A stretch of DNA of 48,921 bases from IMG/VR virus record IMGVR_UViG_2778261394_000010. One strand, 5' to 3'. Shown here piece by piece: positions 1 to 18,853 of this stretch. Position 1 is the first letter of the stretch; the number at the start of each line of letters is the position of its first letter. This stretch comes from a virus. Lineage: Duplodnaviria; Heunggongvirae; Uroviricota; Caudoviricetes. The notes below the pieces were generated by a model, which was given only the letters and a program-made list of their open reading frames with translations, did no database searches and was not told the DNA's origin. Made by a program: the position numbers and the translations under genes.

Positions 1-2670
<2,670 letters not shown>

Positions 2671-2727
2671 TCACGCTCCATAAACGACAAAACCGCCCGC
2701 AGGCGGTTTCACATAAAACATTCTGCA

Positions 2728-3399
2728 TCAGCGACCAATCACCACAACCTGACCACCGTCCCCTTCGTCTGCCGTGCTGATCTCCTGAGAAACCACGCGT
2801 GACCCCACGCGCATTTCCCCGTACAGAACAGGCAGAACATTGCCCTGGGCAACCATGTTATCCAGTGAGGAGAAATAGGTGTTCTGCTTACCGTTATCCG
2901 TTGTCTGTGTACGGGGAGTTCTGGCTTTCGGTGCCAGCATCTGCGCCACACCACCAAGTACCATACTGGCACCGAGAGAAAACAGGATACTGGTCATACC
3001 ACCGGCCCCAATGGCTGCCCCCCATGCTGCAAGGGTGGCTCCGGCAGTAAAGAATGATCCGGCAATGGCGGCAGCCCCCAGAACAATCTGGAATACGCCC
3101 CCTGACTTGGCCCCGGCGACTCTGGGAACAATATGAATCACAGCGCCGTCAGGCAGAACCTCATGTAACTGCGCCGTCAATCCGGACGTGCTGACGTCCC
3201 GCCCGGAAATCCGTACCTGATACCAGCCGTCGCTCAGTTTCTGACGAAACGCCGGGAGCTGTGTGGCCAGCGCCCGGATGGCTTCAGCCCCCGTTTTCAC
3301 ACGAAGGTCGATGCGGCGGCCAAATCGTTGTAAATCCCCGTAAAGGCAGATGCGCGCCATGCCCGGTGACGCCAGAGGGAGTGTGTGCGTCGCTGCCAT
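2728..3399 (-). CDS. I: Tail assembly protein I
   Basis: 223-aa ORF MAATHTLPLASPGMARICLYGDLQRFGRR… matches lambda gpI in length and sequence; overlaps K 3' end as in lambda. Confidence 0.9.
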   Translation of the reverse strand: MAATHTLPLASPGMARICLYGDLQRFGRRIDLRVKTGAEAIRALATQLPAFRQKLSDGWYQVRISGRDVSTSGLTAQLHEVLPDGAVIHIVPRVAGAKSGGVFQIVLGAAAIAGSFFTAGATLAAWGAAIGAGGMTSILFSLGASMVLGGVAQMLAPKARTPRTQTTDNGKQNTYFSSLDNMVAQGNVLPVLYGEMRVGSRVVSQEISTADEGDGGQVVVIGR

Positions 3400-4040
3400 T
3401 TGTCGGTATACCTCTCTCGTTTGCTCAGTTGTTCAGGAATATGGTGCAGCAGCTCGCCGTCACCACAGTAAATGGCGGCATGATTCGGCACCGATGAACC
3501 AAAACAGCACAGCAGCACATCGCCCGGCTGTGCCGCTGACAACGGCACCTGATACAGCCCTGTGGCCTCCAGATTATCCAGATAGAGATTCTGGCCGTGA
3601 CGCCACCAGTCATCCCCGCGATGAAAATTCGGCATCTCAATCCCCGCCAGATGATAAGCATCCCGGAACAGCGTGTAACAGTCCGTCACCCCGTGCTCAA
3701 AGCGCCGCCCGGTGAGATGCGGCACACAGCGGAACTTATGAATCGCCCCCCGGCAGACCAGCAACCACGGCAAATCACTCTGCACCTGCAGCCGCCGGTC
3801 AGCCTCACTCAGCCAGGGCAGACCACCGGGGTGGCTGTGGACCAGCGCCACAATCTCACCCTGCATTTCTGCCTGCAGCCAGTCCTCCGGAGCCATCCGG
3901 AAATAATCCTCCGGCTCACCGGAAATATTCACGCAGGGAAAATATCTTTCCCCCTCCGGCGTTCTCACCACGAAGCCGCACGACTCCGCTGGCGCACATC
4001 GCCGGGCGTGCGCCAGAATCGCTGATTCTGTCTCTGTCAT
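3297..4040 (-). CDS. K: Tail assembly protein K
   Basis: Internal ATG at 4038-4040 gives MTETESAILAHARRCAPAESCGFVV…, lambda gpK-like; starts 5 nt after the L stop. Exact start relative to the lambda annotation is uncertain. Confidence 0.8.
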   Translation of the reverse strand: MTETESAILAHARRCAPAESCGFVVRTPEGERYFPCVNISGEPEDYFRMAPEDWLQAEMQGEIVALVHSHPGGLPWLSEADRRLQVQSDLPWLLVCRGAIHKFRCVPHLTGRRFEHGVTDCYTLFRDAYHLAGIEMPNFHRGDDWWRHGQNLYLDNLEATGLYQVPLSAAQPGDVLLCCFGSSVPNHAAIYCGDGELLHHIPEQLSKRERYTDKWQRRTHSLWRHRAWRASAFTGIYNDLAAASTFV

Positions 4041-4044
4041 GGGA

Positions 4045-4743
4045 TTACTGCGAAAGTTTGTTAATGGAAAGGAAGCCGCCAAAGTTGCCGACGTTATTGC
4101 GGAACTTACAGCCACTCAGGCATTTGCTGCATTTATCCTTCGTGATATCGGACGTCGGCTGGTCATATTCATCCGCGACAGCCGGACCGCTATAACCGCA
4201 CTCGTCACCGCGATAGGTCCAGGTGCAGGTGTTGGCCAGCATGATACGTCCCGGAAAAACAGCGCCATCCGTTTCCGTCGGCGTGGACAGTACAAAGGAG
4301 GCACTCACCGCGCTCAGTTCGCTGCACTGCTCGATGCGCCAGCGGCTGATCACCTCCTGCTCCGGATCGGCGTCACTGTTTCCGTTGACGAAGTTCACCG
4401 CATCCAGAAAACGGGCGTAAACCTTACGCCGGACCACCGTTCCGCCGACCAGACTCTGCAGATCTTCCGCCATCCCGGTGACCATACCGTACAGGTTAGA
4501 AACCGTCAGCGTGGGGCGCGTACTGGTGCCTTTGCCATTCAGTTCAAAACCGCTCCCCTGAATGGGATACGGCTGATACTGTCGCCCCTGCCAGGTGACC
4601 GGCTCACCTTTTTCGTTCTGCTCATTACAGAAAAAATAACGTTCTCCACCGACCTCTGTCAGGTCGATTTCCCAGAGCACCACGCTGGCCGACTGCTCCG
4701 CACGGGTGCATTCATTCAGTGTTTCCTGCCGGATATCCTGCAT
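4045..4743 (-). CDS. L: Minor tail protein L
   Basis: 232-aa ORF MQDIRQETLNECTRAEQSASVVLWEIDLTEVGGERYFFCNE… matches lambda gpL. Confidence 0.92.
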   Translation of the reverse strand: MQDIRQETLNECTRAEQSASVVLWEIDLTEVGGERYFFCNEQNEKGEPVTWQGRQYQPYPIQGSGFELNGKGTSTRPTLTVSNLYGMVTGMAEDLQSLVGGTVVRRKVYARFLDAVNFVNGNSDADPEQEVISRWRIEQCSELSAVSASFVLSTPTETDGAVFPGRIMLANTCTWTYRGDECGYSGPAVADEYDQPTSDITKDKCSKCLSGCKFRNNVGNFGGFLSINKLSQ

Positions 4744-5072
4744 CAGTTCACCACCTGTTCAAACTCTGCGCTGAACTCAACACGCAGCATACTGACCCGC
4801 GACGACCATTTTGCGCAGGTCACCTTTATCTGCCGCCACTCATAAGGCGGCGTCCACAGAAAGGATTTCCAGCCCCCGTGCTCTTCCAGAAACGACTCCA
4901 GTACCGTGGCCTCCTCACGGGGGACAGAAAGCGTCACGCTGTACGTTTTCAGGTTGGCATTCAGCCCGGCAGGCGCTCGCTGGGAATAGCCATCACCAAA
5001 GCGCACCTTTCTTACAGAAGGGGCCGAAGCCACATCCATACCGGGTTTCACTTTCCAGCGGAAGGTCTTCAT
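4743..5072 (-). CDS. M: Minor tail protein M
   Basis: 109-aa ORF MKTFRWKVKPGMDVASAPSVRKVRFGDGYSQRAP… matches lambda gpM; overlaps the L start. Confidence 0.92.
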   Translation of the reverse strand: MKTFRWKVKPGMDVASAPSVRKVRFGDGYSQRAPAGLNANLKTYSVTLSVPREEATVLESFLEEHGGWKSFLWTPPYEWRQIKVTCAKWSSRVSMLRVEFSAEFEQVVN

Positions 5073-7630
5073 CGTCCACCTCCGGAGAACAGGCCACCAT
5101 CACGCATCTGTGTCTGAATTTCATCACGGGCACCCTTGCGGGCCATGTCATACACCGCCTTCAGAGCAGCCGGACCTATCTGCCCGTTCGTGCCGTCGTT
5201 GTTAATCACCACATGGTTATTCTGCTCAAACGTCCCGGACGCCTGCGACCGGCTGTCTGCCATGCTGCCCGGTGTACCGACATAACCGCCGGTGGCATAG
5301 CCGCGCATCAGCCGGTAAAGATTCCCCACGCCAATCCGGCTGGTTGCCTCCTTCGTGAAGACAAACTCACCACGGTGAACAATCCCCGCTGGCTCATATT
5401 TGCCGCCGGTTCCCGTAAATCCTCCGGTTGCAAAATGGAATTTCGCCGCAGCGGCCTGAATGGCTGTACCGCCTGACGCGGATGCGCCGCCACCAACAGC
5501 ACCGCCAATGGCGCTGCCGATACTCCCGACAATCCCCACCATTGCCTGCTTAAGCAGAATTTCTGTCATCATGGACAGCACGGAACGGGTGAAGCTGCGC
5601 CAGTTCTGCTCACTGCCGGTCAGCATCGCCGCCATATTCTGTGCAATACCATCAAAGGTCTGCGTGGCTGCACTTTTTACCTGCGACATACTGTCCGTGG
5701 CGCTCTCTTCCCACTCACTCCAGCCGGACTTCAGGCCTGCCATCCAGCTCCCGCGAAGCTGGTCTTCAGCCGCCCAGGTCTTTTTCTGCTCTGACATGAC
5801 GTTATTCAGCGCCAGCGGATTATCGCCATACTGTTCCTTCAGGCGCTGTTCCGTGGCTTCCCGTTCTGCCTGCCGGTCAGTCAGCCCCCGGCTTTTCGCA
5901 TCAATGGCGGCCCGTTTTGCCCGTTGCTGCTGTGCGAATTTATCCGCCTGCTGCGCCAGCGCGTTCAGGCGCTCCTGATACGTAACCTTGTCGCCAAGTG
6001 CAGCCAGCTGGCGTTTGTACTCCAGCGTCTCATCTTTATGCGCCAGCAGGGATTTCTCCTGTGCAGACAGCTGGCGACGTTGCGCCGCCTCCTCCAGTAC
6101 CGCGAACTGACTCTCCGCCTTCCACAAATCCCGGCGCTGCTGGCTGATTTTCTCATTTGCTCCGGCATGCTTCTCCAGCGTCCGGAGTTCTGCCTGAAGC
6201 GTCAGCAGGGCAGCATGAGCACTGTCTTCCTGACGATCGCCCGCAGACACCTTCACGCCGGACTGTTTCGGCTTTTTCAGCGTCGCTTCATAATCCTTTT
6301 TCGCCGCCGCCATCAGCGTGTTGTAATCCGCCTGCAGGATTTTCCCGTCTTTCAGTGCCTTGTTCAGTTCTTCCTGACGGGCGGTATATTTCTCCAGCGG
6401 CGTCTGCAGCCGTTCGTAAGCCTTCTGCGCCTCTTCGGTATATTTCAGCCGTGACGCTTCGGTATCGCTCTGCTGCTGCGCATTTTTGTCCTGTTGAGTC
6501 TGCTGCTCAGCCTTCTTTCGGGCGGCTTCAAGCGCAAGACGGGCCTTTTCACGATCATCCCAGTAACGCGCCCGCGCTTCATCGTTAACAAAATAATCAT
6601 CCTTGCGCAGATTCCAGATGTCGTCTGCTTTCTTAAACGCAGCCTCTGCCTTAATCAGCATCTCCTGCGCGGTATCAGGACGACCAATATCCAGCACCGC
6701 ATCCCACATGGATTTGAATGCCCGCGCAGTCCTGTCTGCCCAGGTCTCCAGCGTGCCCATGTTCTCTTTCAGGCGGCGGGTCTGGTCATCAAACCCTTTC
6801 GTTGCGGCCTCGTTCGCCGCCTGCAATGCCCCGGCTTCATCGCCGGAACGCTGCAACTGAGCAACATACGCAATCTGCTCCGCCGTCACGTTATGGAACT
6901 GGCGTGCCATCACCGTCAGCCCCGACGTCGGGTCTGTGGTCAGCTTCCCGAAGGCTTCAGCGACCTTGTCCACCTCCACGCCGGATGCAGAGGAGAAACG
7001 CGCCACACTCTGGCTGATGGACGCAATCTGAGCCTCACCGCTTACCCCCGCCTTAACCAGTGCGCTGAGTGACTCGCTGGTCTGGTTAAACGTCAGCCCT
7101 GCCGCCTGCCCGGCTCTGGACAAGACCAGCATACGATCTGCCGTCAGTCCCGCCTGATTGCCGGAAAGGACCAGCGTTTTGTTGAAATCGGACAGGGTTG
7201 AGTTGCCCTGATACCAGGCATACGCCAGCGCACCGGTCGCCACCGCCAGCGAGGTGGCCCCCACCATCGGCAGGGTGATCGCACCGGCAAGCCCCCTGAA
7301 CATGGGGATCATCCCGCCGAAGGAGTCCTTCACCTGCCCCCCCTGTTGCAGCAGGATCAGCCACGGACTTTGCCCGCCTGCAAGCTGCGTGGCCACGTCG
7401 GTGAACTGTGCAGGCAGCATACGCATGCCGGCTTTATACTGCCCGACGGAAATCCCCGCTTTCTGTGCAGCCAGCGCCTGTCGGCTCAGCGACTGTTCAA
7501 CGACTGCCGCTGTTTTTTTCGCATCACTTTCCGTACCGAAAAAATGACGCCTGACTCTGGCCATCTGCTCGTCAAATCTGGCCGCATCCAGACTCAAATC
7601 AACGACCAGATCGCCTACCGGTTCAGCCAT
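5069..7630 (-). CDS. H: Tail tape measure protein H
   Basis: 853-aa ORF, coiled-coil rich, with the glycine-rich segment GGAVGGGASASGGTA; same length and position as lambda gpH. Confidence 0.95.
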   Translation of the reverse strand: MAEPVGDLVVDLSLDAARFDEQMARVRRHFFGTESDAKKTAAVVEQSLSRQALAAQKAGISVGQYKAGMRMLPAQFTDVATQLAGGQSPWLILLQQGGQVKDSFGGMIPMFRGLAGAITLPMVGATSLAVATGALAYAWYQGNSTLSDFNKTLVLSGNQAGLTADRMLVLSRAGQAAGLTFNQTSESLSALVKAGVSGEAQIASISQSVARFSSASGVEVDKVAEAFGKLTTDPTSGLTVMARQFHNVTAEQIAYVAQLQRSGDEAGALQAANEAATKGFDDQTRRLKENMGTLETWADRTARAFKSMWDAVLDIGRPDTAQEMLIKAEAAFKKADDIWNLRKDDYFVNDEARARYWDDREKARLALEAARKKAEQQTQQDKNAQQQSDTEASRLKYTEEAQKAYERLQTPLEKYTARQEELNKALKDGKILQADYNTLMAAAKKDYEATLKKPKQSGVKVSAGDRQEDSAHAALLTLQAELRTLEKHAGANEKISQQRRDLWKAESQFAVLEEAAQRRQLSAQEKSLLAHKDETLEYKRQLAALGDKVTYQERLNALAQQADKFAQQQRAKRAAIDAKSRGLTDRQAEREATEQRLKEQYGDNPLALNNVMSEQKKTWAAEDQLRGSWMAGLKSGWSEWEESATDSMSQVKSAATQTFDGIAQNMAAMLTGSEQNWRSFTRSVLSMMTEILLKQAMVGIVGSIGSAIGGAVGGGASASGGTAIQAAAAKFHFATGGFTGTGGKYEPAGIVHRGEFVFTKEATSRIGVGNLYRLMRGYATGGYVGTPGSMADSRSQASGTFEQNNHVVINNDGTNGQIGPAALKAVYDMARKGARDEIQTQMRDGGLFSGGGR

Positions 7631-8461
7631 ACCGGACTCCTCCTGCGATCCCTTCTGATACTGTCATCAGCATTACGTCATCCTCCGTCATGTCCGCCAC
7701 ATCCGGGGAAGTAGGGATAACTTCATTCCCGTCCGGGCCAAAGCGGACACCTCCGGCAAGCCCTGCCGCTTTCTGCATCAGCACATCATCTTCAGGCTCT
7801 TCGTCAGCCTCGCGCCGGTTCAGCAGACTGAAATCCAGCGGATGCATATCCGGATCGCTGAAAAACAGGCTGAGTACGGTGTACGTCAGCCCGGAAAAGT
7901 GCATATCCAGCAGAACATCATGAAAATAATGGGTACTGTAAAAGCGGTGCCAGTCGGCATACTCCGTGGATGACATCCCGGCAAGCATGGCACGCCAGTC
8001 GGGTCGCCCCATCTCGCGCGCCAGTTTCAGGGCAAAACTCAGCTCACCGTCGAACACTTTCCCGCAGAAACAGGCTCTGCAGGCCCGGCGTCCTCTGCCT
8101 GATCAGGGGCATCATTCACCACAAACTCATACATTCCGGACAGCCGGTACACCACGTTTTCAGCATGAGAAATTGCCTCCGTGGGCCAGGTGGTAAGCAC
8201 TTCCTGCTCAATCTGTTTAACGGCTTCATTCATGGACGGCATCTGCGTCTTCTGCGGATGGTTATGCCAAAGGGACATCGCCACCAGAAACGCGCCGGTT
8301 CTGATGGCGTCTTCCACAGTAAACTTCCGGTTGCTGTCTGACTCCGCCTGTTCTGCCTGCCGTTTCATCAGGGCGAGATGCTCAATGCGCTGCAGGGCTG
8401 ACAGTTCAGAAAGCGTGACGGTCACACCGTTATGTTCAAATGATTCGGTTTTCAGGAACAT
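7623..8461 (-). CDS. T: Tail assembly chaperone G-T, product of programmed -1 ribosomal frameshift (G frame to 8057, then T frame to 7623)
   Basis: T-frame ORF 7623..8057 (VFDGELSFALKLAREMGRPDWRAMLAGMSS…) has no independent start and overlaps the G 3' end; the slippery heptamer sits at the overlap, as in lambda G-T. Confidence 0.8.
8039..8461 (-). CDS. G: Tail assembly chaperone G
   Basis: 140-aa ORF MFLKTESFEHNGVTVTLSELSALQRIEHLALMKR…AGKCSTVS matches lambda gpG. Confidence 0.92.
   Translation of the reverse strand: MFLKTESFEHNGVTVTLSELSALQRIEHLALMKRQAEQAESDSNRKFTVEDAIRTGAFLVAMSLWHNHPQKTQMPSMNEAVKQIEQEVLTTWPTEAISHAENVVYRLSGMYEFVVNDAPDQAEDAGPAEPVSAGKCSTVS
8057..8063 (-). promoter_or_regulatory. 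Slippery heptanucleotide G GGA AAG for the G/G-T -1 frameshift
   Basis: Minus-strand sequence GGGAAAG lies in G codons 134-135 (Gly-Lys), five codons before the G stop; plus strand reads ctttccc. Confidence 0.8.
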
Positions 8462-8476
8462 CGCTGACTCTCCGGA

Positions 8477-9217
8477 TTAACTGGCGGTGACGGTAATTTC
8501 TGCAACCGCAGCAAACTCACCATTACCGGATACAACCGGAATGTTGACCTTGCCTGCAGCAACGCCGTTCACGGTGATGGTCATACCACTGACCGACACG
8601 GTGGCTTTTGTTTTATCCGCAGACACCGCACGAAAGCTCTTGTCGGTTACGCCCTCCGGCTGGAAGGCCACGGTCAGCGTGGTGCTCTGCCCTTTCACCA
8701 CCGAGGTGCTGGCAGGCGTCACGGTCATGCCGGTTGCCGCTGTTACCGTGCTGCGATCTTCTGCCATCGACGGACGTCCCACATTGGTGACTTTCACCGT
8801 GCGGGTGATCACTTCCTTCGCCGTCACCGCCTTACCGATACTGCTGACCCAGCCACGGAACACATCGACCGTGCCGTTCGGGAAGCGGATTTTATAGGCA
8901 CGGGTATCACCTTCATTAAACCACGCCAGCAGCGCCTGCTGCCCCTGCTCTCCGGGCATCCACGCCAGCGTGAAGCTGGTATCTCCGGCGGATTTCTGAC
9001 CCTGCCCGGTCGCGGTCCAGTCCGCATCTTCATCATCGAGATAACTGTCGTCATAGGACTCAGCGGTCAGTTCGCCGGGCGTCAGGTCTTTAACTTTAGC
9101 CAGACGCGACCAGTCAACGTCTGAAAGCGGGTTCGCATAAGGGTCGCCGCTCCCGTTATAAACCCACAGGGTGGTTCCGGCACCTTTCACCGGCATTGTA
9201 GGATTTGGTACAGGCAT
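8477..9217 (-). CDS. V: Major tail protein V
   Basis: ATG at 9215-9217 gives [20 protein letters not shown]…, 246 aa, matching lambda gpV; the ORF track extends 10 codons upstream to an earlier Met. Confidence 0.92.
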
Positions 9218-9224
9218 AGCGTCC

Positions 9225-9620
9225 TCACATTTCATAGGTAATGACATAAGTCAGATCGGCAGAACTCCACAGGCCCGCATCATCGTCGCGCCGGTAGTCA
9301 TAGCCGCTGGCCACCATACTGGTGATCAAATCTGACAGTGCCGGGATATCGCTCATCACCGGATAAATCCGGGACTCCATCCACGCATCCAGCTCTGAAT
9401 CCGGCACCTGAGCAGGCAGGAAAACTTCGATATGCAGCTCCGCCTGCCAGGTATCGCTGTCCAGCTCTTCGCCCGTGTATTCAGCGCCGGTGAGATAAAC
9501 GGCAACTGCCGGAAAATCCGCCTCATCAAAAACAGCGGGGCGACCATCAAAAAACGTCGTCCCGGTGTCATGCTTCTCCAGTGCATCCAGTACGGCTGCA
9601 CGGAGTTCAGTATGTTTCAT
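9225..9620 (-). CDS. U: Tail terminator protein U
   Basis: 131-aa [23 protein letters not shown]… matches lambda gpU. Confidence 0.92.
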
Positions 9621-10195
9621 CGCTTTATTACCATCCTCAGTTGATGCTGCAGCGCATAGCCCAGCTCTTTCGGAAGACGCTCACGCCGTATCCGCTCAAT
9701 ATTCTGTTTAAACGCCGTGGTCAGCGGCACCGCCATCGGGATTTTCACCACATCAATGGGGTAACGATTTTTCCCGGCCACACGCTGCATGACATGCCAG
9801 CGGCCATTTTTCAGTTGCTGAATAAACGCGCCGGGAATACGACGGTTTCCCACCACAAGCACGCTGCCGCCACCTTTCAGGGCTGAACGCTGCCCCTTTT
9901 TACGACGCCTGCGTCGGGACAGGACAATCCGCGCGTTACCCAGCTTTATTACGGGCAAATCCCCCCGGTTAACCTTGATTTTGGCCTGCGGATTTTTGAC
10001 CGTGGCCCTTTTCAGCCTGGCCCTTTCCTTTACCAGTTTCCGGCGTACCTTTGTCTCACGGGCAACCTGTGACGCCGACTGCGATATCGCGGATGAAGCA
10101 ACGCGGTTAATGGCCATTGCGGCGGCACCGGGCACCGCCGTTCTGCTGATACGGCTGAGGTTTTCAACGGCCTGCTCAAGACCTTTTATGGCCAT
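9617..10195 (-). CDS. Z: Tail completion protein Z
   Basis: 192-aa ORF MAIKGLEQAVENLSRIS… with an RRRRRKKGQR stretch, matching lambda gpZ. Confidence 0.92.
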   Translation of the reverse strand: MAIKGLEQAVENLSRISRTAVPGAAAMAINRVASSAISQSASQVARETKVRRKLVKERARLKRATVKNPQAKIKVNRGDLPVIKLGNARIVLSRRRRRKKGQRSALKGGGSVLVVGNRRIPGAFIQQLKNGRWHVMQRVAGKNRYPIDVVKIPMAVPLTTAFKQNIERIRRERLPKELGYALQHQLRMVIKR

Positions 10196-10206
10196 ACATC
10201 CCCCTT

Positions 10207-10560
10207 TCAGCGGCGACGGTTAACGGCAGGCGGTACGCCCCGCCCAAGCCAGAGATGACAGCTTCCGCCATCATCCGGCGAAATCCGATCTACCCAGAAA
10301 TTTTCCTCACCGATGGTCAGCGTGTCTCCACGCCGCAGCTGCCGCACCTCATCAGTCCGGACAAACAGGGACGGGCTGGAGCCTTCAACGCGCACGCCCT
10401 GTCCGGCATAGCTGATATTTTCAGGGTCATCAAAAACACCACGTATCACCGCACCTGACTGCTCACCGGATGTAATGGTGGCTGACGTTCCCATGTACCC
10501 GCGTATCGTTTCATCGGCGCGGGCAATGGCAGCATCGAACAGGTTATCGAAATCAGCCAC
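10207..10560 (-). CDS. FII: Head-tail connector protein FII
   Basis: 117-aa ORF MADFDNLFDAAIARADETIRGYMGTSATITSG… matches lambda gpFII. Confidence 0.92.
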   Translation of the reverse strand: MADFDNLFDAAIARADETIRGYMGTSATITSGEQSGAVIRGVFDDPENISYAGQGVRVEGSSPSLFVRTDEVRQLRRGDTLTIGEENFWVDRISPDDGGSCHLWLGRGVPPAVNRRR

Positions 10561-10571
10561 AGCGCCTCCCG

Positions 10572-10970
10572 TTATTGCATTCTGGCCAGGCCGCGCTCTG
10601 TCATTTCGGCTGCCACACCGGCAGAGACACGAAACGCCGTTCCCGGCAGCACAAATGCCACAGGTTCATCCCGCGTGGCGTGAAGTGCATCAGTATGCAG
10701 CTTCACCAGTGCCACGACCGTGACCAGTTCAGACGTATCCAGAATCACGGTATCCGGCTGCGCTGATCCCACCTCATTTTCATGTCCGGTCAGCACATTT
10801 TCCCGGCTGAGAGGGGTGTCCTGACCGGCAGTTTCATCCGTGTCATCAAGCTCCTCTTCCAGCTCTGCCACACGGAGCGCCAGTTCTTCTTTCGTCCCCC
10901 TCAGGCTGACATCACGGTTCAGTTGTTCACCCAGCGAGCGGAGACGGGCAATCAGTTCATCTTTCGTCAT
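10572..10970 (-). CDS. FI: DNA-packaging / head assembly protein FI
   Basis: ATG at 10968-10970 gives MTKDELIARLRSLGEQLNRDVS…, 132 aa, lambda gpFI; 41-nt gap to the E stop as in lambda. Confidence 0.9.
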   Translation of the reverse strand: MTKDELIARLRSLGEQLNRDVSLRGTKEELALRVAELEEELDDTDETAGQDTPLSRENVLTGHENEVGSAQPDTVILDTSELVTVVALVKLHTDALHATRDEPVAFVLPGTAFRVSAGVAAEMTERGLARMQ

Positions 10971-11011
10971 GGACTCCTCCACAGAGAAACAATGGCCCCG
11001 AAGGGCCATGA

Positions 11012-11802
11012 TTACGCCAGTTGTACGGACACGAACTCATCAGGGTCAGCCAGCAGCATCAGCGGTGCTGACTGAATCATGGTGAACTCACGCGCCGGAT
11101 CGCCGGTGGTCACCCAGTTTTTCGGGTAACGGGCAGAGGCGTTAATGCCTTCGCGCTGTGCGTCCGCATCCTGAATGCAGCCATAGGTGCGCAGACCGCG
11201 TGCCTGAGTGTTCCCCAGCACCATCGTGTTGTCCGGCAGGAAGTTCTTTTTGACGCCGTTTTCCACGTACTGTCCGGAATACACGACGATGGCCACATCG
11301 CCATACATCCCCTTATAGGACACCGCTTTACCTAGGTCTTTCACCGCTGTCTCCAGCTCGGAATTAGAGCCACGACGGGTATCCAGCTTTTCCTTGACGG
11401 CTTTGAAGGAACGGAACAGCGCCCAGCCTTTCGGATCAAACACGATGATATTCACCACACCGCTGGCGTTCAGCGCGTAGGCTTCGATATCGTCGGTCGG
11501 GTCATACGTGGACTTGTCACGCTTGCTCCACTCCGTGCCGCCGGACTGCGTGATGTTATTCTCCTCACTGCGGCCCATATCCACCTCAACCGGATCGAAG
11601 GCTTCACCGGTCATGGTGTATTTGCCCTTAAGCACGGCAGAAACTGCCTGCATCTCTTCGACCTGAGCAATGGCCAGCTCTTCGTCACGCATGTTCTGCA
11701 TGATGATGCGACGGCGGCGGTAAGCCGGGTCCGCCAGATTCTGCGGATCTTCATCCGGCAGGCGACGCAGGGTCATCTGCGGATTCACTTCATGCTTCGG
11801 CT
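11012..11802 (-). pseudogene. E: Major capsid protein E, 3' fragment (codons ~83-341), separated from its 5' part by the inserted element
   Basis: Frame reads …PKHEVNPQMTLRRLPDEDPQNLADP… to the normal E C-terminus (…DEFVSVQLA); an in-frame TAG immediately upstream at 11801-11803 marks the insertion junction. Confidence 0.9.
11793..11802. repeat. Left junction core of inserted element (TGCTTCGGCT; rc AGCCGAAGCA)
   Basis: Identical 10-mer recurs at 22723..22732; E-derived sequence is continuous across the two copies once the intervening 10.9 kb is removed. Confidence 0.85.
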
Positions 11803-11874
11803 ACATGAGTCAAATATGAAAGGAACTGAATGATTTTTAATGAAATAAATGGCTCTCTCTATCAAAATACAGCT

Positions 11875-11900
11875 AAAAAGCAATACACGTAGCAATACAG
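11875..11900. repeat. 26-bp terminal direct repeat, left copy (aaaaagcaatacacgtagcaatacag)
   Basis: Near-identical copy (aaaaagcaatacaagctgcaatacag) at 22570..22595 just inside the right junction; contains tandem GCAATACA half-sites. Confidence 0.6.
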
Positions 11901-11929
11901 CGCTTCGCAAAGGTATGTCACTATATCTA

Positions 11930-12865
11930 CTAGTGCCAACCAGAATACGAATATCTTTGCTTTGCTTCTTCTGGGCTCATACCCACTAGTAAAGATACTA
12001 ATTCAAAGTCAGGTTGTGGAATTGGAATCAATGCAGCCAAATATGCTGGCTTATTGAGAACAATTGTTGATAATTTAGCTTTATTCACCTTAGATAACTC
12101 AATATTACTTTCCGCCACCTTCGGGAACTCCATAATAAATGAATTAATTTCCCTTATGAGATAATCGATCAACGCCACTATACTTTCTGTCAAATCAATA
12201 TATTTTGACAACTCACTAGCACCAATTTCTTTCTTTATTTCATCCAATTTAATTTCAAACACTGGCTTGTCTTTACTGGCAATATTAGACAAACGTTTCT
12301 TTAAATCTGAATCAAGCTGATTCCTGACAATTAAACTTTTCAAAACAAAATTATAATTAAACAAAAAAGCATCAATTCGAGCAATATTCCTCCATGAGTT
12401 TCCAATTTCTTCATCTGACGGCATAATAAGTTCATGTTTTAGTATCTTGTACTTAATAAAAAAAACAAACCTCTCAAATAGAGATTTATTAGCTGTGGGT
12501 ATCTTTTTTATAAATGAAAGACGGCTAATATCGTAATTCACCTCCCCGGCGTTAAATAAAAATTCATTTATTGCCAGCGCTCTTAATATCGGATTTCTAG
12601 ATCTCAAACCAATATAACTACTTTTAATTCCCACAAGTGTATTTATCATCTGAAAAGAAACCATCATAAGCGTATTAGCAGAATTAAATTTCTCCGTTTC
12701 TATTTTAATCTTCTCTTGCCTATTATTGATGTAATAAGCAGTTAAGCCTCCCATAAGCGCCGATAAAAAAGATAATGCAATAGGGAATACATAATCTTTT
12801 GTATAATCAACATCTGCTTTCAACATTAGTATTGCTTTAGCAATCAAAACTGCATCAGGGGTCAT
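11930..12865 (-). CDS. Hypothetical protein, AT-rich cargo gene with a predicted N-terminal transmembrane segment
   Basis: Long ORF with low-GC codon usage unlike its neighbours; hydrophobic stretch YVFPIALSFLSALMGGLTAYYI; no recognisable motif. ATG at 12865 preferred over the TTG at 12895 used by the ORF track. Confidence 0.5.
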   Translation of the reverse strand: MTPDAVLIAKAILMLKADVDYTKDYVFPIALSFLSALMGGLTAYYINNRQEKIKIETEKFNSANTLMMVSFQMINTLVGIKSSYIGLRSRNPILRALAINEFLFNAGEVNYDISRLSFIKKIPTANKSLFERFVFFIKYKILKHELIMPSDEEIGNSWRNIARIDAFLFNYNFVLKSLIVRNQLDSDLKKRLSNIASKDKPVFEIKLDEIKKEIGASELSKYIDLTESIVALIDYLIREINSFIMEFPKVAESNIELSKVNKAKLSTIVLNKPAYLAALIPIPQPDFELVSLLVGMSPEEAKQRYSYSGWH

Positions 12866-13565
12866 GTTAGAGCCGTCATTAAAAATTAAACACAATACCC
12901 ATAAAATATAACAGCTTATTGTTTAGAAAAGCAATATCATACACTCTATGATAAGCGTAATATCTGACAGGCATGGTGTGTTACGACACTTAATTAAACG
13001 TAATTTGCTAAAATTTTACACACAGAATCACACCTGGCTCTAACTCTCCTTTCATTACAATTGTAAGCATACAATTATCCTACCAGAACTTTATTGTTGA
13101 GCTCTCCCTTTTGAGCCCATCCCATAATGAATTGACGAAAGAACCGTATCTGTGGAGTAATCATTTCTGCGCGGTTCTATGTCGAAGACAAAATGTGGTA
13201 TGCGCATCTAGTCAGAGGGAAAGCAATTTTTCAGGGAAATATCATCTCTACATGGTTAAGACAACCAGAAGAAGTTATCAAGCAAGTTGGGTATGAAGAT
13301 TTTCCTATAATAGTAACGAAACGGGTTTCACCTGAGCGGTTGTGTTCGATCCGCCACAATACGCATAGGATGCCCTGTAATCCGTATTCTGCTTACTCAA
13401 CAGCTTACCAGCAGGACTCGTAAGGCTGTTGCGATAGTGCAGAAGTAGGCCACGACCATAAAGTGAAGCCAGTGGCGCGTTATCGACTACTTTAGTGTAG
13501 AGCCTGATTTCAACGCAAGCATGAGAGTTTTTTCTGGCGATAGGCCGTGACAAACAGCAACAAAA

Positions 13566-13766
13566 TCAGAGAAAGGAAACGGCAGAGGCCAAAAAGCCCG
13601 TTTTCAGCGCCTGTCATTTCCTTTCTTTTCAGAGGGTATTTTAAATAAAAACATAAAGTTACGGCGAAGAAGAACGGAAACGCCTTAAACCGGAAAATTT
13701 CCATAAATAGAGAAAAACTGCGCGCCTGACGCCCCGTAGCCTGTCAGATCGCCGGAAAGGACCCGC
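13566..13766. other. cos-like site of the inserted element, homologous to the helper cos region but with a diverged cosN 12-mer
   Basis: About 200 bp aligns without gaps to helper 28935..29133 (most positions identical by eye); the cosN position reads cgcctgacgccc (13723..13734) against helper aggtcgtcgccc. Confidence 0.8.
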
Positions 13767-13790
13767 CAGCCAGAGCGGGCCCTAATTTCA

Positions 13791-14174
13791 TCAACCAATC
13801 AGCTTATAGCGACCATCCCGTGCATTGCGGCGTACACGCTCAATCTTGAGGCATAGCGCCGCATCTGGCTTTTTTGGGACAGGTACGCGGCAATATTCAG
13901 AAGCGCGAGGAATATTATTTATCCAGTCGATCACTTCACTTAAATACCAGGCCTTACGCCCTTCCGTAACCTGCACACGCTCCGGGAACTCTCCACTAGC
14001 CTCAAGGTTTAGCAGTGTACGCCGACTCAGGGTTGTAATTTCCATCACCTGATTCATATCAACAAGGCGCTCGCTTAAACACATTTTGTCAGCGATAGCT
14101 TTTAATTCCTCTACAGCTGGATTCGGGTACATCATTTCGGCAATTGGCTTAAGGTCATTGTAATCATTCTGCAT
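13791..14174 (-). CDS. HTH protein with an AlpA/MerR-like C-terminal half, function unknown (regulator or packaging-specificity factor)
   Basis: 127-aa ORF; segment EITTLSRRTLLNLEASGEFPERVQVTEGRKAWYLSEVIDWI resembles AlpA-family HTH; strong SD AAGGGGG; immediately downstream of the D-like gene and upstream of the cos-like site. Confidence 0.55.
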   Translation of the reverse strand: MQNDYNDLKPIAEMMYPNPAVEELKAIADKMCLSERLVDMNQVMEITTLSRRTLLNLEASGEFPERVQVTEGRKAWYLSEVIDWINNIPRASEYCRVPVPKKPDAALCLKIERVRRNARDGRYKLIG

Positions 14175-14185
14175 TGTATCCCCCT

Positions 14186-14527
14186 TTACACACGAGCCAG
14201 CGGCTGAACAGAAATACCTGAGCCAACAAACGCGGCAACCTTTGCCGACAGTTCTCTTACAGACTCAGGCCAGTTCAGAGCATCAACATTTAAAACACCT
14301 GTCTTATAAACCTGTGCCTGTGTTTTTTTCGCTGTGTCGATTTGTACAGCGGAAACATAAACCGCTTTGCCTGCGCTCGTTCCATCCCATACCACTAGCG
14401 CACCAGTTGCATCTTCCTGCATCAGTGGCGTAAACGCAGGTATTACCCCTTTATTGGCTGAAAATATCCCCAGCGTAGTAACCAGTGCTTCAGTGCCAGA
14501 CATGAGTTCAGTGTAATGAGTAGCCAT
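14186..14527 (-). CDS. Head decoration protein, diverged gpD homolog carried by the element
   Basis: 113 aa; …AFTPLMQEDATGALVVWDGTSAGKAVYVSAVQ… parallels lambda gpD …[35 protein letters not shown]…; strong SD AAGGGGGAG. Confidence 0.7.
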   Translation of the reverse strand: MATHYTELMSGTEALVTTLGIFSANKGVIPAFTPLMQEDATGALVVWDGTSAGKAVYVSAVQIDTAKKTQAQVYKTGVLNVDALNWPESVRELSAKVAAFVGSGISVQPLARV

Positions 14528-14536
14528 TGCTCCCCC

Positions 14537-15577
14537 TTAGCCAATGCGAACGGTAACAAAACGATTGATGCGGGCCGGTATTGGCTGTGGTGCTGAATGT
14601 GTCTGCACATATTCAATAGCCGGATCACCAGGCACAATATAGTTTTTCGGTGCAAGTTCGGCTTTAGTCAGCCCCATTCGGATTAGCTCCGGATCCTGAA
14701 TACCGCCATAGGCGACAATCCCCTGAAGAGCCGTATTGCCAAGCACCATCAAATCAGGATCAAGGAAATGTTTTTCAGTTCCGTCCTCGTCGGTATAACG
14801 CCCGCTGTATACAACAATCGCAACATCGCCCATATACCCTTTAAAACTCACCGAATCACCAAGGTCTTTAAGGGCCGTTTCCAGTTCGGAATTAGAACCA
14901 CGACGGGTATCCAGAGCCTCTTTTATCGCTCTGAATGAACGGTATTTCTTCCATACATTACCGCCCATAATGATGATATTAGTGACGCCCTCACTAAATT
15001 CTGCGTAGCTCTCAATATCATCATTTGGATCAAAAGTTTCTTTATCCTTACCTGACCACTCAGCACCGCCAGACTGAGTGATGATATTTTGTGGTTTAAT
15101 ATTCCAGTCCAGCTCATAACGTTCAATACCATCGCCCTCAATGATATTTTTCCCCGTTGTGATTGCCTGAACGGCAAGCCATTCAATACGTGCACGAATA
15201 GCTTTAGCCTGATTTACAATCGCCTGTTTAACTTTAATATTACGCGCTCCAAAAGCATTGTATTGCTCAGGTGATACACCAGCAGGGCGCACAGCTAACT
15301 TATTTGGATCAATGCTGCTTTTCGGCTTCATATAGCCTGGACGAATTGTTTTTGATTCGTACCCTTCGTCACGTGAAACTTTACTACCCACCATAGGAGA
15401 ACAAAACGCTGCAATTGGGATATTTGGATCGTCGATTGTATCAAGAATAATATCGCGCGATTCAAACATTACCGAGCGAGTAAAAAACAAACTGGTAAAC
15501 AACGCATTTAGTTGTTTTTGTACATCTACAGCATTAACCACCTGTACAAGCTGGGTAGGCGAATATAAATCAACCAT
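14537..15577 (-). CDS. Major capsid protein, diverged gpE homolog carried by the element
   Basis: 346 aa from ATG at 15577 (SD AAGAGGA); shares ITQSGG.EWS, TRRGSNSELET and GDVAIVVYSG motifs with lambda gpE but is clearly diverged; earlier in-frame starts at 15583 and 15598 are possible. Confidence 0.85.
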   Translation of the reverse strand: MVDLYSPTQLVQVVNAVDVQKQLNALFTSLFFTRSVMFESRDIILDTIDDPNIPIAAFCSPMVGSKVSRDEGYESKTIRPGYMKPKSSIDPNKLAVRPAGVSPEQYNAFGARNIKVKQAIVNQAKAIRARIEWLAVQAITTGKNIIEGDGIERYELDWNIKPQNIITQSGGAEWSGKDKETFDPNDDIESYAEFSEGVTNIIIMGGNVWKKYRSFRAIKEALDTRRGSNSELETALKDLGDSVSFKGYMGDVAIVVYSGRYTDEDGTEKHFLDPDLMVLGNTALQGIVAYGGIQDPELIRMGLTKAELAPKNYIVPGDPAIEYVQTHSAPQPIPARINRFVTVRIG

Positions 15578-15749
15578 ACGCATCCTCTTTGCATTCATTA
15601 AAAATAATTGTGGATATATGCTATCACCGATATTTGTCATGCGAATACATGCAACCGAGTGCAATGTTGTATAAAGTTTTGGGATGACAACTTCAGCACG
15701 GATAATTAGTGTTAATATCTTCACTCCCTTTGGTCTGGATTTATGTAGC

Positions 15750-15790
15750 ATGCCGGAAAATTTATTTTTTTTCCGGCCTTTTTTATTGGC
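15750..15790 (+). terminator. Hairpin with flanking T-tract (gccggaaaa…ttttccggc + ttttttatt)
   Basis: 9-bp perfect stem followed by a T-run on the plus strand, between the SSB and capsid genes; may act in either direction given the flanking A/T tracts. Confidence 0.4.
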
Positions 15791-15795
15791 AATAT

Positions 15796-16245
15796 TTAAA
15801 ACGGAATATCATCTCCCCATTGCTCATTATCTCCCACTGGTGGATGGCTTCCTTGCTGATCTGCCTGTTGTTTTGCTCTGTTCAGTGCGTCAGTAGCCTG
15901 ACCCTGTTGATCTTTTTTGCCGCCCGGTCGCACCGTTCGCGCACTGATTACGCTGTCTGCGATAACCTGCCAGCCCTGCCGCGTTTCACCGTTCTGTCCA
16001 GTCCACTGGCTCACCTGCATATTACCCGCCACGCTCAGGAGTTCGCCTTTGTGATGCTTTGCCAGCGTGTCGGCTTGTCTGCCAAACGCCAGCACAGATA
16101 ACCACATCGTCGCCGTTCCGTCATCTGCCTGGCTGCATGGCAAAGATACCGCCATCCGTGCCAGTGTCATGGGTGTTCCCTTGCTGGTATGTTTTACCTG
16201 TGGGTCGTCCACCAGCCGCCCGTAAGCTGCTATTTGCGCCGTCAT
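15796..16245 (-). CDS. ssb: Single-stranded DNA-binding protein
   Basis: 149 aa with Gly/Gln-rich linker and acidic C-terminal tail ending DDIPF, the SSB hallmark. Confidence 0.85.
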   Translation of the reverse strand: MTAQIAAYGRLVDDPQVKHTSKGTPMTLARMAVSLPCSQADDGTATMWLSVLAFGRQADTLAKHHKGELLSVAGNMQVSQWTGQNGETRQGWQVIADSVISARTVRPGGKKDQQGQATDALNRAKQQADQQGSHPPVGDNEQWGDDIPF

Positions 16246-16256
16246 GCTGCCTGCTC

Positions 16257-16499
16257 TCAGGACTTAATATTGATGGTTGTCACTTCCTCCGCTTCGGCAA
16301 TCTCCCGTTCGGTCAGCGTGGCAAAGTTTGCAGCCGCCGTTGTCATGAATGCGCTTATCAGTTCGGGATGTGCTTTCGCGTATCCTTCCCCGGCGTTGCG
16401 GTCTATTGCCTTAATCGCCACCCTTAGCCAGTGTTCAGCCATATCAAGGGCGCGGTAATGTGGCTTTATATGTTTGTTCAGTTTTCCTGATGTGTGCAT
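16257..16499 (-). CDS. Hypothetical protein
   Basis: 80-aa ORF between the iteron origin and ssb, co-oriented with the replication operon; no motif recognised. Confidence 0.4.
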   Translation of the reverse strand: MHTSGKLNKHIKPHYRALDMAEHWLRVAIKAIDRNAGEGYAKAHPELISAFMTTAAANFATLTEREIAEAEEVTTINIKS

Positions 16500-16546
16500 T
16501 TTTATTTTTACCCCCTCGTTTAAAAAGTTTTTTGTGCACCACCACC

Positions 16547-16777
16547 TTGTCTACCTTGTCTACCTGATTAGTTATCAGGCCAGTAATGGCGCGGGTTTCA
16601 GGGAGGTAGACAGCCCCAAATAGCTGTCTACCTCATCTCTACCCGTCTCCTTACCTGTCTACAAAAATGGGTAGATAAGGTAGATAACAGGTAGACAGTG
16701 AAAAATAGTTATCTACCTGCATTAATACATTGAAATAAAAGCATTTTATTTCAGTCAGGTAGACAAGGTAGATAACC
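16547..16777. repeat. Iteron cluster, putative replication origin of the element
   Basis: At least 12 copies of GGTAGAYA / TRTCTACC in both orientations, some tandem (ggtagataaggtagataacaggtagacag), with AT-rich spacers, immediately downstream of the primase-helicase gene. Confidence 0.7.
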
Positions 16778-16788
16778 ATTGCCATTTT

Positions 16789-18540
16789 TTATAAAAACGC
16801 ATCGCAATCATCAGTAGTCGTTGCGTTGGTCTGCGTGACTCCCTTAACTTTTCGCGTAATATATTCATATCCGTAAACTTTCGCCGCTGACCTCATAGCC
16901 TTTCCGAACTCATTCACGCTCAAACATTTCCCCTTTCCTGTATATGCCATGAAGGCCATATAGACACGGTAAAGGCTGTTTCTGGTCGTGTACTTCACGG
17001 TGTCACCACCACCGCCCATCATTAGCCCACGAGCTTCCTCCAGAAACTCCAGCGCCGCGCAAAGCTCAACAACCGGATCCGTTTGCTGCTTTATTGCCAG
17101 AGCTTCATCACCGTCACGCTGTTCCAGTAATAAAGCCCGTGCCTTTTCAGGGTCAGCAAAATTAGCCAGCAAGCGGCGGATAATTACGGGGATTTCTGCC
17201 GCTATCTTTTCCGGTAATTCCTTGTCTTTTTCGTCCTCCCTTACAATGTTGTCGAACCGGAAAATCACCCGACGGCGTGACACACCTCCGGCCCGTTCGG
17301 TAAAGATCATCGGGTCGTTATTGGTTGCCAGTACCACCGCCCTTATTATCGTCGTGAATCGCTTCTCATATTTCGGGTTAATTTCAACGGGATCGCCTCC
17401 CGTGATTTTCTTGATGCCCGTGCCTTCCCCCGTATATTTCGGCTGATCGGCAAGGACGATAAGACGACTCCCGACAACCTGCGCACGCCCTCCTGCATCA
17501 TCGAGTGATGTCATCTCTGCGCTTACGGTGTTCTGTTTGCCAGCAAGCAGGGTGGCAATATGGGTAAATGTACTCTTACCGCTTCCCCCGTCTCCGGTGG
17601 CCTCAATGAACATCTGCCAGTCGTACCGGTTCGCCATAATCATGTACAGCGCGGCACATATACGCATCATCTTGCGCGGGTCTTTTCCGGCTGCGTGCTC
17701 AAGCCATTTATGAAAGTTTGGCGCGTTATCGCGGATGTTCTCCCCTGGTGCTGGTGGCGTGTACTCAATGCCGTTGTGCGTGGTGATCCAGTTCTCCGGC
17801 GTGTGCGGGGAAAATTCCCCCGTTTTCAGGTCAAGCGCACCATTGGCGAACGGCAGCAAATCGCCGGACGGCTCGCCCATTGGTTCGGCAATAACTTTTA
17901 ACGCTTCAACGGCGTTATTGATCACGCGTTTGCTGAAAGTGGCCCTGTGCTCTGAATAGATCGCCACCATTTCGCGGCTCAGCTCCATTGTGCTGATCGG
18001 ACACCATACCCCGCCGCGCCATACGTGAACGATTTCACTTTCCGGATGCACACAAACGCCATCAAAGCGCTCGGCAAGCAGCTGCGCGCGCTCACTGTCT
18101 GCCATCTGTGAAAGTTGCGCCTTTTGCTTCGTCGGAAGATTAAGCACCAGGCTTTCCCCACGCTCGCATTCCTCTTTGAGTCGCGGCAACTGGTCGGATA
18201 AATCCACTGGGCTGGTGTCAGTAATCCCCGCGTATTCGTGTACGGTCTTCACTCCAGCCACAGCCAGTAACGTAACAATCTGCGTCATGCTGTGCTCTGT
18301 GATATGTCCTGCGCGGTAAACACGCACACACTGACGATCTTCATCAATGATCCGGTAATCGGTGATGTTTTTCAGTTGCTCATCAGCCAACACGACAGGC
18401 GGCACATCGTCGGCGGCAATATGTTTACCCGCCCATTCCTGCCACTCTTTCGCATGGCTCCACGCATCACTACCTGCAAAGATGATTATCTCTGTCAGTC
18501 TGTCGCGTGGCTGTTTTTTTAAGTTCGGTGCCAGTTTCAT
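16789..18540 (-). CDS. Primase-helicase replication protein (P4-alpha / D5-like, SF3 helicase)
   Basis: 583 aa; Walker A GDGGSGKST followed by a D5_N/SF3-like region (…IVLADQPKYTGEG…LATNNDP…); adjacent to the iteron origin. Confidence 0.85.
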   Translation of the reverse strand: MKLAPNLKKQPRDRLTEIIIFAGSDAWSHAKEWQEWAGKHIAADDVPPVVLADEQLKNITDYRIIDEDRQCVRVYRAGHITEHSMTQIVTLLAVAGVKTVHEYAGITDTSPVDLSDQLPRLKEECERGESLVLNLPTKQKAQLSQMADSERAQLLAERFDGVCVHPESEIVHVWRGGVWCPISTMELSREMVAIYSEHRATFSKRVINNAVEALKVIAEPMGEPSGDLLPFANGALDLKTGEFSPHTPENWITTHNGIEYTPPAPGENIRDNAPNFHKWLEHAAGKDPRKMMRICAALYMIMANRYDWQMFIEATGDGGSGKSTFTHIATLLAGKQNTVSAEMTSLDDAGGRAQVVGSRLIVLADQPKYTGEGTGIKKITGGDPVEINPKYEKRFTTIIRAVVLATNNDPMIFTERAGGVSRRRVIFRFDNIVREDEKDKELPEKIAAEIPVIIRRLLANFADPEKARALLLEQRDGDEALAIKQQTDPVVELCAALEFLEEARGLMMGGGGDTVKYTTRNSLYRVYMAFMAYTGKGKCLSVNEFGKAMRSAAKVYGYEYITRKVKGVTQTNATTTDDCDAFL

Positions 18541-18836
18541 TTTTTGCCCCTGAATGCGTTAATCATGCTTTTCATTTTCTGGATGTTTCCCCGCGCTTTT
18601 TCCCTGCTGATGGGCTTACTGCGGGGTGCGGCATATACCAGGGAAAAATCACGCCGGAACTGATAAACAGGCATCACGCAGTCATAGCTATACCCCTCAC
18701 GACGGTAAGTGATGCGCCGTTCTGCCACGCCTTTAATCGTTACCGTGCCGCCGTATTTATCGCGGTAAATATCGCCGTTCATAAATTCAGGCCGAGCGGG
18801 GCCGCTGGCAATAAAGCCAGAATTTTTCATTTCCAT
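18537..18836 (-). CDS. Hypothetical protein
   Basis: 99-aa ORF whose stop overlaps the primase-helicase start (4-nt overlap), suggesting translational coupling. Confidence 0.4.
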   Translation of the reverse strand: MEMKNSGFIASGPARPEFMNGDIYRDKYGGTVTIKGVAERRITYRREGYSYDCVMPVYQFRRDFSLVYAAPRSKPISREKARGNIQKMKSMINAFRGKK

Positions 18837-18853
18837 ATTATTTATTCCTCGAC

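What the first reader, a model, noticed from the sequence alone, without database searches (positions are those of the whole stretch)
8057..8063. Conserved G/G-T programmed -1 frameshift site
Slippery heptamer GGGAAAG at the G-T overlap, as in lambda. Noted so that the T ORF (no own start) is not mis-annotated as an independent gene or pseudogene.
Basis: established knowledge. Interest (0 to 1): 0.2.

Follow-up and report, generated by a model that had tools for sequence, protein, structure and literature searches.

The report
Lambda G/GT tail-chaperone frameshift site
This is the well-known ribosomal "slip" site of phage lambda's tail-assembly genes G and T, sitting in a lambda-like prophage of E. 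coli with sequence identical to lambda, so it is real but ordinary.

Summary
The heptamer GGGAAAG is at 8057..8063, on the minus strand. It lies in the X_XXY_YYZ phase (G_GGA_AAG, Gly134-Lys135) of a 140-codon ORF that is lambda gene G. G stops five codons later. The -1 frame is open for only 13 codons upstream but 146 codons downstream, and it encodes lambda T. The site plus 17 nt upstream and 40 nt downstream are identical to lambda (site = lambda 10109..10115). The fused 279-aa product matches the curated G and T families. The heptamer alone is not significant (12 copies against about 6 expected), but only this copy has the frameshift geometry. In 125 related loci, down to 37% T-protein identity, N_NNA_AAG is always present at the aligned position. 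The GTG that databases use as the "T start" is not conserved and has no usable Shine-Dalgarno. A possible RNA structure 7 nt downstream (z = -2.9) has weak covariation and stays inconclusive. Separately, the prophage's capsid gene E is split by a known "helper-embedded PICI" satellite.

The parts
8057..8063 (-). Slippery heptamer G_GGA_AAG (zero-frame codons Gly134 GGA, Lys135 AAG; -1 frame GGG AAA)
   Evidence: identical to lambda 10109..10115
8039..8461 (-). Gene G, zero-frame product gpG, 140 aa, tail assembly chaperone; stop TGA at 8041..8039
   Evidence: PF06894 3.7e-60 and TIGR01674 8.4e-65
7623..8057 (-). T segment, -1 frame relative to G, read only as the C-terminal part of gpGT. The full GT coding path is 8461..8057 joined to 8057..7623, giving 279 aa. 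Stop TGA at 7625..7623.
   Evidence: PF06223 6.1e-14 and TIGR01715 2e-55 on the fused protein
8468..8473 (-). Shine-Dalgarno of G (GGAGAG, 7-nt spacing), the only initiation signal serving both gpG and gpGT
   Evidence: -6.6 kcal/mol; sequence
7623..7630 (-). ATGGCTGA overlap: H start codon (7630..7628) overlaps the T-frame stop (7625..7623); strong SD for H lies upstream
5069..7630 (-). Gene H, tape measure protein (853 aa), the binding partner of gpG and the G part of gpGT
8477..9217 (-). Gene V, major tail tube protein (lambda-equivalent start; the ORF list shows a longer 256-aa ORF reaching 9247), the binding partner of the T domain
7979..8049 (-). Putative, unproven RNA structure starting 7 nt 3' of the heptamer (two helices)
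   Evidence: z = -2.9, but weak covariation and weak synonymous constraint. Inconclusive.

Best explanation
This is the programmed -1 ribosomal frameshift site of the lambda-type tail assembly chaperone genes G and T, in a lambda-like prophage on the minus strand. Ribosomes start at the G ATG (8461). Most read G_GGA_AAG in frame and terminate five codons later, giving gpG (140 aa). A few percent slip: with tRNA-Gly on GGA in the P site and tRNA-Lys (anticodon mnm5s2UUU) on AAG in the A site, both tRNAs move back one base and re-pair with GGG and AAA. Those ribosomes continue in the -1 frame through T and produce gpGT (279 aa). In lambda the rate is about 4%, giving about 30:1 gpG:gpGT. gpG and the G part of gpGT bind the tape measure protein H. 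The T domain recruits the tail tube protein V. Neither protein ends up in the virion. Shown here: sequence, phase, ORF geometry, identity to lambda, family membership, conservation of the slip motif, and the lack of a credible T start. Inferred from lambda experiments on an identical site: the slip itself, its rate, and the chaperone function.
For: Heptamer and phase. This is the only one of 12 GGGAAAG copies with frameshift geometry. The region is 98.9% identical to lambda V-G-T-H, and the site with 17 nt upstream and 40 nt downstream is identical. It lies between the major tail gene and the tape measure gene. The fused 279-aa product hits PF06894 + PF06223 and the equivalogs TIGR01674 + TIGR01715. 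Comparative evidence: 9 phages and 26 species-level prophages, down to 37% T identity, all keep N_NNA_AAG (GGGAAAG, GGAAAAG, GGTAAAG, AAAAAAG) at the aligned position, mostly 7 codons before the G stop. The Lys codon at the site shows 0 synonymous differences in 435 pairs, against about 0.4 elsewhere. T-frame amino-acid conservation starts right at the slip site. The GTG 'start' is not conserved and has a poor SD. N15 and LLS records annotate the homologous site explicitly as a -1 frameshift. Literature.
Against: No expression data exist for this particular prophage. Its capsid gene E, upstream in the same late operon, is interrupted by a 10.9-kb satellite, so late-gene expression here may be delayed or altered. 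A GTG codon does exist at the start of the T frame, and major databases treat it as a start.
Confidence: 0.95

Rival explanations
1. T is an independent gene initiated at GTG 8057..8055, as annotated in RefSeq lambda and by PGAP.
For: the ORF listing reports a 144-aa GTG-initiated ORF at 7623..8057. NC_001416 and NZ_CP027462 annotate it as a separate CDS. One record even marks a 3-nt 'RBS' there.
Against: The best anti-SD pairing is -4.3 kcal/mol with about 1-nt spacing and is formed by the slip-site G's themselves. G and H have -6.6 and -10.3 kcal/mol at 7-nt spacing. In all 27 diverged loci in the tally the homologous codon is GCC, GTC, GTA, GCT or GTT, none of them a start codon. The next ATG lies 15-44 codons into the open -1 frame, in or beyond the conserved LKLAREMGRPDW motif. 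Lambda experiments show a G-T fusion (Levin 1993).
Confidence: 0.02
2. The frame change is made by RNA polymerase slippage (transcriptional realignment) on the A run rather than by the ribosome.
For: Transcriptional slippage is known in bacteria on homopolymer runs (reviewed in PMC5009743). The Stx-phage homologues have a run of six A.
Against: The run here is only three A's, far shorter than the runs that support polymerase slippage (established knowledge). The conserved feature is the phase-specific A_AAG codon arrangement, not run length. In lambda the gpG:gpGT ratio responds to tRNA-Lys U34 thiolation, which is a ribosomal signature (PMC3296357).
Confidence: 0.01
3. The site is an inert relic: the prophage is defective because capsid gene E is split, and G-T is no longer expressed or selected.
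For: E is interrupted by a 10,920-bp insert at 11803..22722. A Shigella flexneri copy of G-T (L131) is visibly degraded, showing that such decay happens.
Against: All tail ORFs here are intact and 98-99% identical to lambda. The insert is a known helper-embedded PICI that excises precisely and is thought to depend on the helper's structural proteins (PMC10111431). That would keep the tail genes, including G/GT, under selection.
Confidence: 0.03

Closest known systems
Phage lambda G / G-T programmed -1 frameshift (Levin, Hendrix & Casjens 1993; Xu, Hendrix & Duda 2004, 2013, 2014)
   Same: Same heptamer G_GGA_AAG, same phase, same distance to the G stop, and identical flanking sequence (17 nt upstream, 40 nt downstream). 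Same gene order V-G-T-H. The T-frame peptide is 99% identical.
   Different: There are a few substitutions elsewhere in G and T (14 differences in 1301 nt). This copy sits in a prophage whose capsid gene carries an embedded satellite.
N15 / phi80 / mEp213 / LLS-type G-T sites (G_GAA_AAG) and Stx-phage sites (A_AAA_AAG)
   Same: Homologous G and T proteins, the same aligned position, and the same A_AAG A-site codon.
   Different: The P-site codon differs: GAA to GGA re-pairing is imperfect, while AAA to AAA is perfect. The codon after the site is not GTG.
E. coli dnaX -1 frameshift (A_AAA_AAG, tau/gamma)
   Same: The same shift-prone Lys AAG A-site codon, read by the single E. coli tRNA-Lys (established knowledge; PMC5009743).
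   Different: dnaX has an upstream SD-like stimulator and a downstream stem-loop and reaches about 50% efficiency. The lambda-type site is low-efficiency and is reported to work without stimulators. I found no SD-like element 10-14 nt upstream in the sequence, and only an unproven downstream fold.
Tail assembly chaperone frameshifts of other long-tailed phages (HK97, mycobacteriophages, P2 E/E', Mu -2)
   Same: The same logic and the same genomic position between the tail tube gene and the tape measure gene (PMC5009743, PMC10885494).
   Different: These proteins generally have little or no sequence similarity to G/T, and some use other slip motifs or shift directions.

Membership tests
Lambda-type G/GT tail assembly chaperone -1 PRF | Located between the major tail tube gene and the tape measure gene, co-oriented with them | tested here: met
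   V 8477..9217, G 8039..8461, T 7623..8057 and H 5069..7630 are all on the minus strand.
Lambda-type G/GT tail assembly chaperone -1 PRF | [quoted passage not shown] | tested here: met
   G_GGA_AAG lies at heptamer index 398 of the G mRNA (phase 2), with the G stop 5 codons after AAG.
Lambda-type G/GT tail assembly chaperone -1 PRF | The downstream ORF is in the -1 frame, overlaps the end of G, and lacks its own conserved start and RBS | tested here: met
   The -1 frame is open 13 codons upstream and 146 downstream. The GTG has a poor SD and is not conserved.
Lambda-type G/GT tail assembly chaperone -1 PRF | Sequence homology to gpG and gpT | tested here: met
   PF06894 201.7 bits, PF06223 52.6 bits, TIGR01674 216.8 bits and TIGR01715 185.8 bits are all above the curated cut-offs.
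Lambda-type G/GT tail assembly chaperone -1 PRF | Slip motif conserved at the homologous position in diverged relatives | tested here: met
   All 125 loci that include the region have N_NNA_AAG there. The Lys codon is invariant.
Lambda-type G/GT tail assembly chaperone -1 PRF | A fused gpGT polypeptide is made at a few percent of gpG and is required for tail assembly | not testable with these tools
   This was shown for lambda on an identical site (Levin 1993; Xu 2013, 2014, as cited). No protein data exist for this prophage.
Stimulator-dependent bacterial -1 PRF (dnaX / IS-element type) | A 3' stem-loop or pseudoknot 5-9 nt downstream, supported by covariation, and/or an SD-like element upstream | tested here: inconclusive
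   The 90-nt downstream fold has z = -2.9 and starts 7 nt after the site, but a 50-nt window gives z = +1.07. On 30 sequences, 85.6% of cells pair against 83.5% in shuffles. Essentially one pair covaries, and the structure is broken in the most diverged loci. Synonymous diversity is 0.365 against 0.441. There is no Rfam match.

The most novel reading that the evidence does not exclude
In the lambda/N15 group of G-T genes, the first ~75 nt of T (window 8049..7979, minus strand) may fold into a two-helix RNA structure starting 7 nt after the slip site. That structure would tune the gpG:gpGT ratio, contrary to the textbook view that this frameshift needs no stimulator.
Probability: 0.1. Interest if true: 0.3.

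Novelty: already known. Interest (0 to 1): 0.08.

Why it matters
The main value is practical. The site tells annotators that 7623..8057 is not a free-standing gene or a pseudogene but the C-terminal half of a 279-aa frameshift product. Reference annotations (RefSeq lambda, PGAP output for E. coli prophages) still list T as a separate GTG-initiated CDS, so the caution is justified. Biologically it adds nothing new, because the site is identical to the experimentally characterised lambda site. It does show that the tail-assembly module of this satellite-bearing prophage is intact.

Tried and rejected
(1) I used the heptamer count as evidence and rejected it: 12 copies against about 6 expected is uninformative. 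(2) The scan of viral contigs with the T alignment returned only 99-100% identical copies, which are useless for covariation. The species-level genome scan gave the needed diversity. (3) I tested a downstream stimulatory RNA structure. It looked promising on energy and in RNAalifold on 9 sequences, but it was not upheld convincingly on 30 sequences or by synonymous-site analysis, and a 50-nt window is unremarkable. My first structure string was unbalanced (error). (4) The Rfam scan of 7400..8700 gave only chance-level hits. (5) I tried to read Xu et al. 2013 (PMC3762263) and it is not held. Levin 1993 and Xu 2004-2014 are therefore cited only through reviews. (6) I looked for an upstream dnaX-like SD stimulator by eye in the sequence and saw none 10-14 nt upstream of the heptamer. 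(7) The first Python run failed on file naming. (8) PADLOC and NCBIfam scans of the satellite's unassigned ORFs gave nothing, apart from an Icd-like domain.

Full report
**Observation**

The plus strand of the window reads CTTTCCC at 8057..8063, so the claimed GGGAAAG is present at exactly those coordinates but on the minus strand. The heptamer by itself carries no weight. It occurs 12 times in the window on both strands, against 6.2 +/- 2.2 expected from dinucleotide-preserving shuffles.

I therefore scored every copy for frameshift geometry. Only the 8057..8063 copy meets all four conditions:
- It is in X_XXY_YYZ phase.
- A long zero-frame ORF lies upstream (138 open codons).
- The zero-frame stop follows shortly after.
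- The -1 frame is closed 13 codons upstream but open for 146 codons downstream.

Translation confirms this. The zero-frame ORF 8461..8039 (140 aa) ends ...PVSAGKCSTVS*. The -1 frame reads ...CFCGKVFDGELSFALKLAREMGRPDW... through to a TGA at 7625..7623. That stop overlaps the ATG of the next gene (7630) in the sequence ATGGCTGA.

**What it is**

The 1.3 kb around the site is 98.9% identical to phage lambda V-G-T-H and to many lambda-like phages. There are 14 single-base differences. None lies between 8080 and 8017, so the heptamer, 17 nt upstream and 40 nt downstream are identical to lambda. The site corresponds to lambda 10109..10115.

The conceptual fusion protein has 279 aa (G residues 1-135 followed by the T frame). 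It matches Pfam PF06894 (lambda tail assembly chaperone G, 3.7e-60) and PF06223 (minor tail protein T, 6.1e-14). It also matches the NCBIfam equivalogs TIGR01674 and TIGR01715, all well above the curated cut-offs. Gene order is tail tube V, G, T, tape measure H, all on the minus strand.

**Comparative test of the slip site**

I collected homologous loci at increasing divergence:
- Seven annotated phages in addition to lambda.
- 80 viral contigs, all near-identical to the window.
- 46 loci from species-dereplicated bacterial genomes, with T identity down to 37%.

In all 125 loci that include the region, an N_NNA_AAG motif occupies the aligned position. The forms are GGGAAAG, GGAAAAG, GGTAAAG and AAAAAAG. 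AAG is always the zero-frame Lys codon, and the G stop usually follows 7 codons after the first heptamer codon. The Lys codon shows no synonymous variation in 435 sequence pairs, whereas conserved residues elsewhere in T differ synonymously in about 40% of pairs. Amino-acid conservation in the -1 frame starts immediately at the site (K2, E7, L8, F10...). N15 and LLS records annotate the homologous heptamer explicitly as a -1 frameshift site.

**Does T start on its own?**

A GTG does begin at the last base of the heptamer (8057..8055). Three observations argue against it being a start:
1. Its best pairing with the anti-Shine-Dalgarno sequence is -4.3 kcal/mol at about 1-nt spacing and is formed by the slip-site G's. 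G and H have -6.6 and -10.3 kcal/mol at 7-nt spacing.
2. In every diverged homologue the corresponding codon is GCC, GTC, GTA, GCT or GTT, none of which is a start codon.
3. The first ATG in the T frame lies 15-44 codons into the open -1 frame, in or beyond the conserved LKLAREMGRPDW motif.

**Mechanism**

Established knowledge for lambda, taken from PMC3296357, PMC5009743 and PMC7618472, which cite Levin et al. 1993 and Xu et al. 2004, 2013, 2014:
- About 96% of ribosomes read G_GGA_AAG in frame and make gpG.
- About 4% slip back one base, with tRNA-Gly re-pairing GGA to GGG and tRNA-Lys(mnm5s2UUU) re-pairing AAG to AAA. These ribosomes make gpGT.
- The gpG:gpGT ratio of about 30:1 matters for tail assembly and responds to tRNA-Lys U34 thiolation.
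- gpG and the G part of gpGT bind the tape measure protein. The T domain recruits the tail tube protein.
- Neither protein is in the virion.

Because the site and its flanks here are identical to lambda, I infer the same mechanism. The slip itself was not and cannot be shown with these tools.

**A possible stimulatory RNA**

The 90 nt after the heptamer fold to -40.3 kcal/mol (z = -2.9), with the first helix starting 7 nt after the site. RNAalifold on nine homologues recovers two helices with one GC-to-AU compensatory pair.

The signal did not hold up well on further testing:
- A 50-nt window is unremarkable (z = +1.07).
- On 30 distinct sequences, 85.6% of cells pair against 83.5% in column-preserving shuffles.
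- Covariation rests essentially on one pair, which separates the lambda-type sequences from the N15-type ones.
- The structure is broken in the five most diverged loci, which still keep the slip motif.
- Synonymous diversity over the region is only mildly reduced (0.365 against 0.441).
- No Rfam family matches.

[quoted passage not shown] I record the structure as inconclusive. It is most likely a by-product of the highly conserved N-terminal peptide of T.

**Context**

The window is a lambda-like prophage on the minus strand:
- Window 1..11802 corresponds to lambda 18171..6370.
- Window 22723..29100 corresponds to lambda 6379..1.
- Window 29101..31637 corresponds to lambda 48502..45967.

Its major capsid gene E is interrupted by a 10,920-bp insert at 11803..22722, flanked by the 10-bp direct repeat AGCCGAAGCA. 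The insert carries an integrase, AlpA, a D5-type primase, SSB, its own E-family capsid gene, a D-family decoration gene, and a 164-bp cos-like segment. This matches the published helper-embedded PICI '11capE', which sits in capsid gene E of a lambda-like prophage with the same 10-bp identity block (PMC10111431). It is known, not new. It does mean that late-operon expression of G/GT in this prophage may be entangled with the satellite. All tail ORFs are nevertheless intact.

**Verdict**

The feature is already known and of low interest. Its value is correct annotation: G is 8461..8039, and GT is 8461..8057 joined to 8057..7623.

Noticed in passing
window 11803..22722 (direct repeats at 22732..22723 and 11802..11793): The prophage's major capsid gene E is split by a 10,920-bp integrase-bearing element flanked by the 10-bp repeat AGCCGAAGCA. 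The element carries int, AlpA, a D5-type primase, SSB, and its own lambda-E-family capsid and D-family decoration genes. It matches the published helper-embedded PICI '11capE' (Mageeney et al. 2023, PMC10111431). 201 of 5426 complete E. coli genomes cover at least 80% of window 6000..16000, which spans one junction.
   Followed up: yes
window 13560..13722: Inside the satellite, a 164-bp segment is 92% identical to lambda 13..176 (the cos/cosB region). It is presumably the satellite's own cos site for packaging by the helper terminase, as the HE-PICI paper suggests.
   Followed up: partly
window 11930..12895 (-) and 20489..21025 (+): Two satellite accessory ORFs have no assigned function. The first is an AT-rich 321-aa ORF (PHROG 21267, unknown function; no Pfam, NCBIfam or PADLOC hit). 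The second is a 178-aa ORF on the opposite strand with no hit in any library. In a related element the equivalent position holds a 'putative abortive infection protein', so these are candidate defence or accessory cargo.
   Followed up: partly
L093-L107, L117, L126, L133 (genome-contig hits): Lambda G-T segments 99-100% identical to the window turn up in assemblies labelled Neobacillus, Oceanobacillus, Kitasatospora, Shewanella, Pseudomonas, Chromatium and others. Coverage is often about 1x, and some contigs are 48.4-48.5 kb, which is lambda's genome size. This looks like lambda control-DNA contamination of those assemblies.
   Followed up: no
L001 (NC_001416 10115..10549); L004 16943..17377: RefSeq lambda and PGAP-annotated E. 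coli prophages still list T as a separate GTG-initiated CDS rather than as a ribosomal-slippage join. LLS (PQ299149) annotates the join, and LLS and N15 mark the slip site.
   Followed up: yes
L131 (Shigella flexneri CP182557.1), around 1201: This copy of G-T keeps GGGAAAG, but both reading frames are broken nearby (G frame open for only 7 codons, T frame for 11 codons). It is a decaying prophage remnant.
   Followed up: no
window 7979..8049 (-): A predicted two-helix RNA fold begins 7 nt after the slip site (z = -2.9). The synonymous sites in GAC TGG CGN GCC ATG are unusually conserved. Covariation evidence is weak.
   Followed up: partly
window 29100/29101: Lambda coordinate 1 abuts coordinate 48502, so the cos ends are joined, as expected for an integrated, circularly permuted prophage. 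Similarity to lambda in the early region (window 31638..48921) is patchy, which indicates a mosaic lambdoid phage rather than lambda itself.
   Followed up: no
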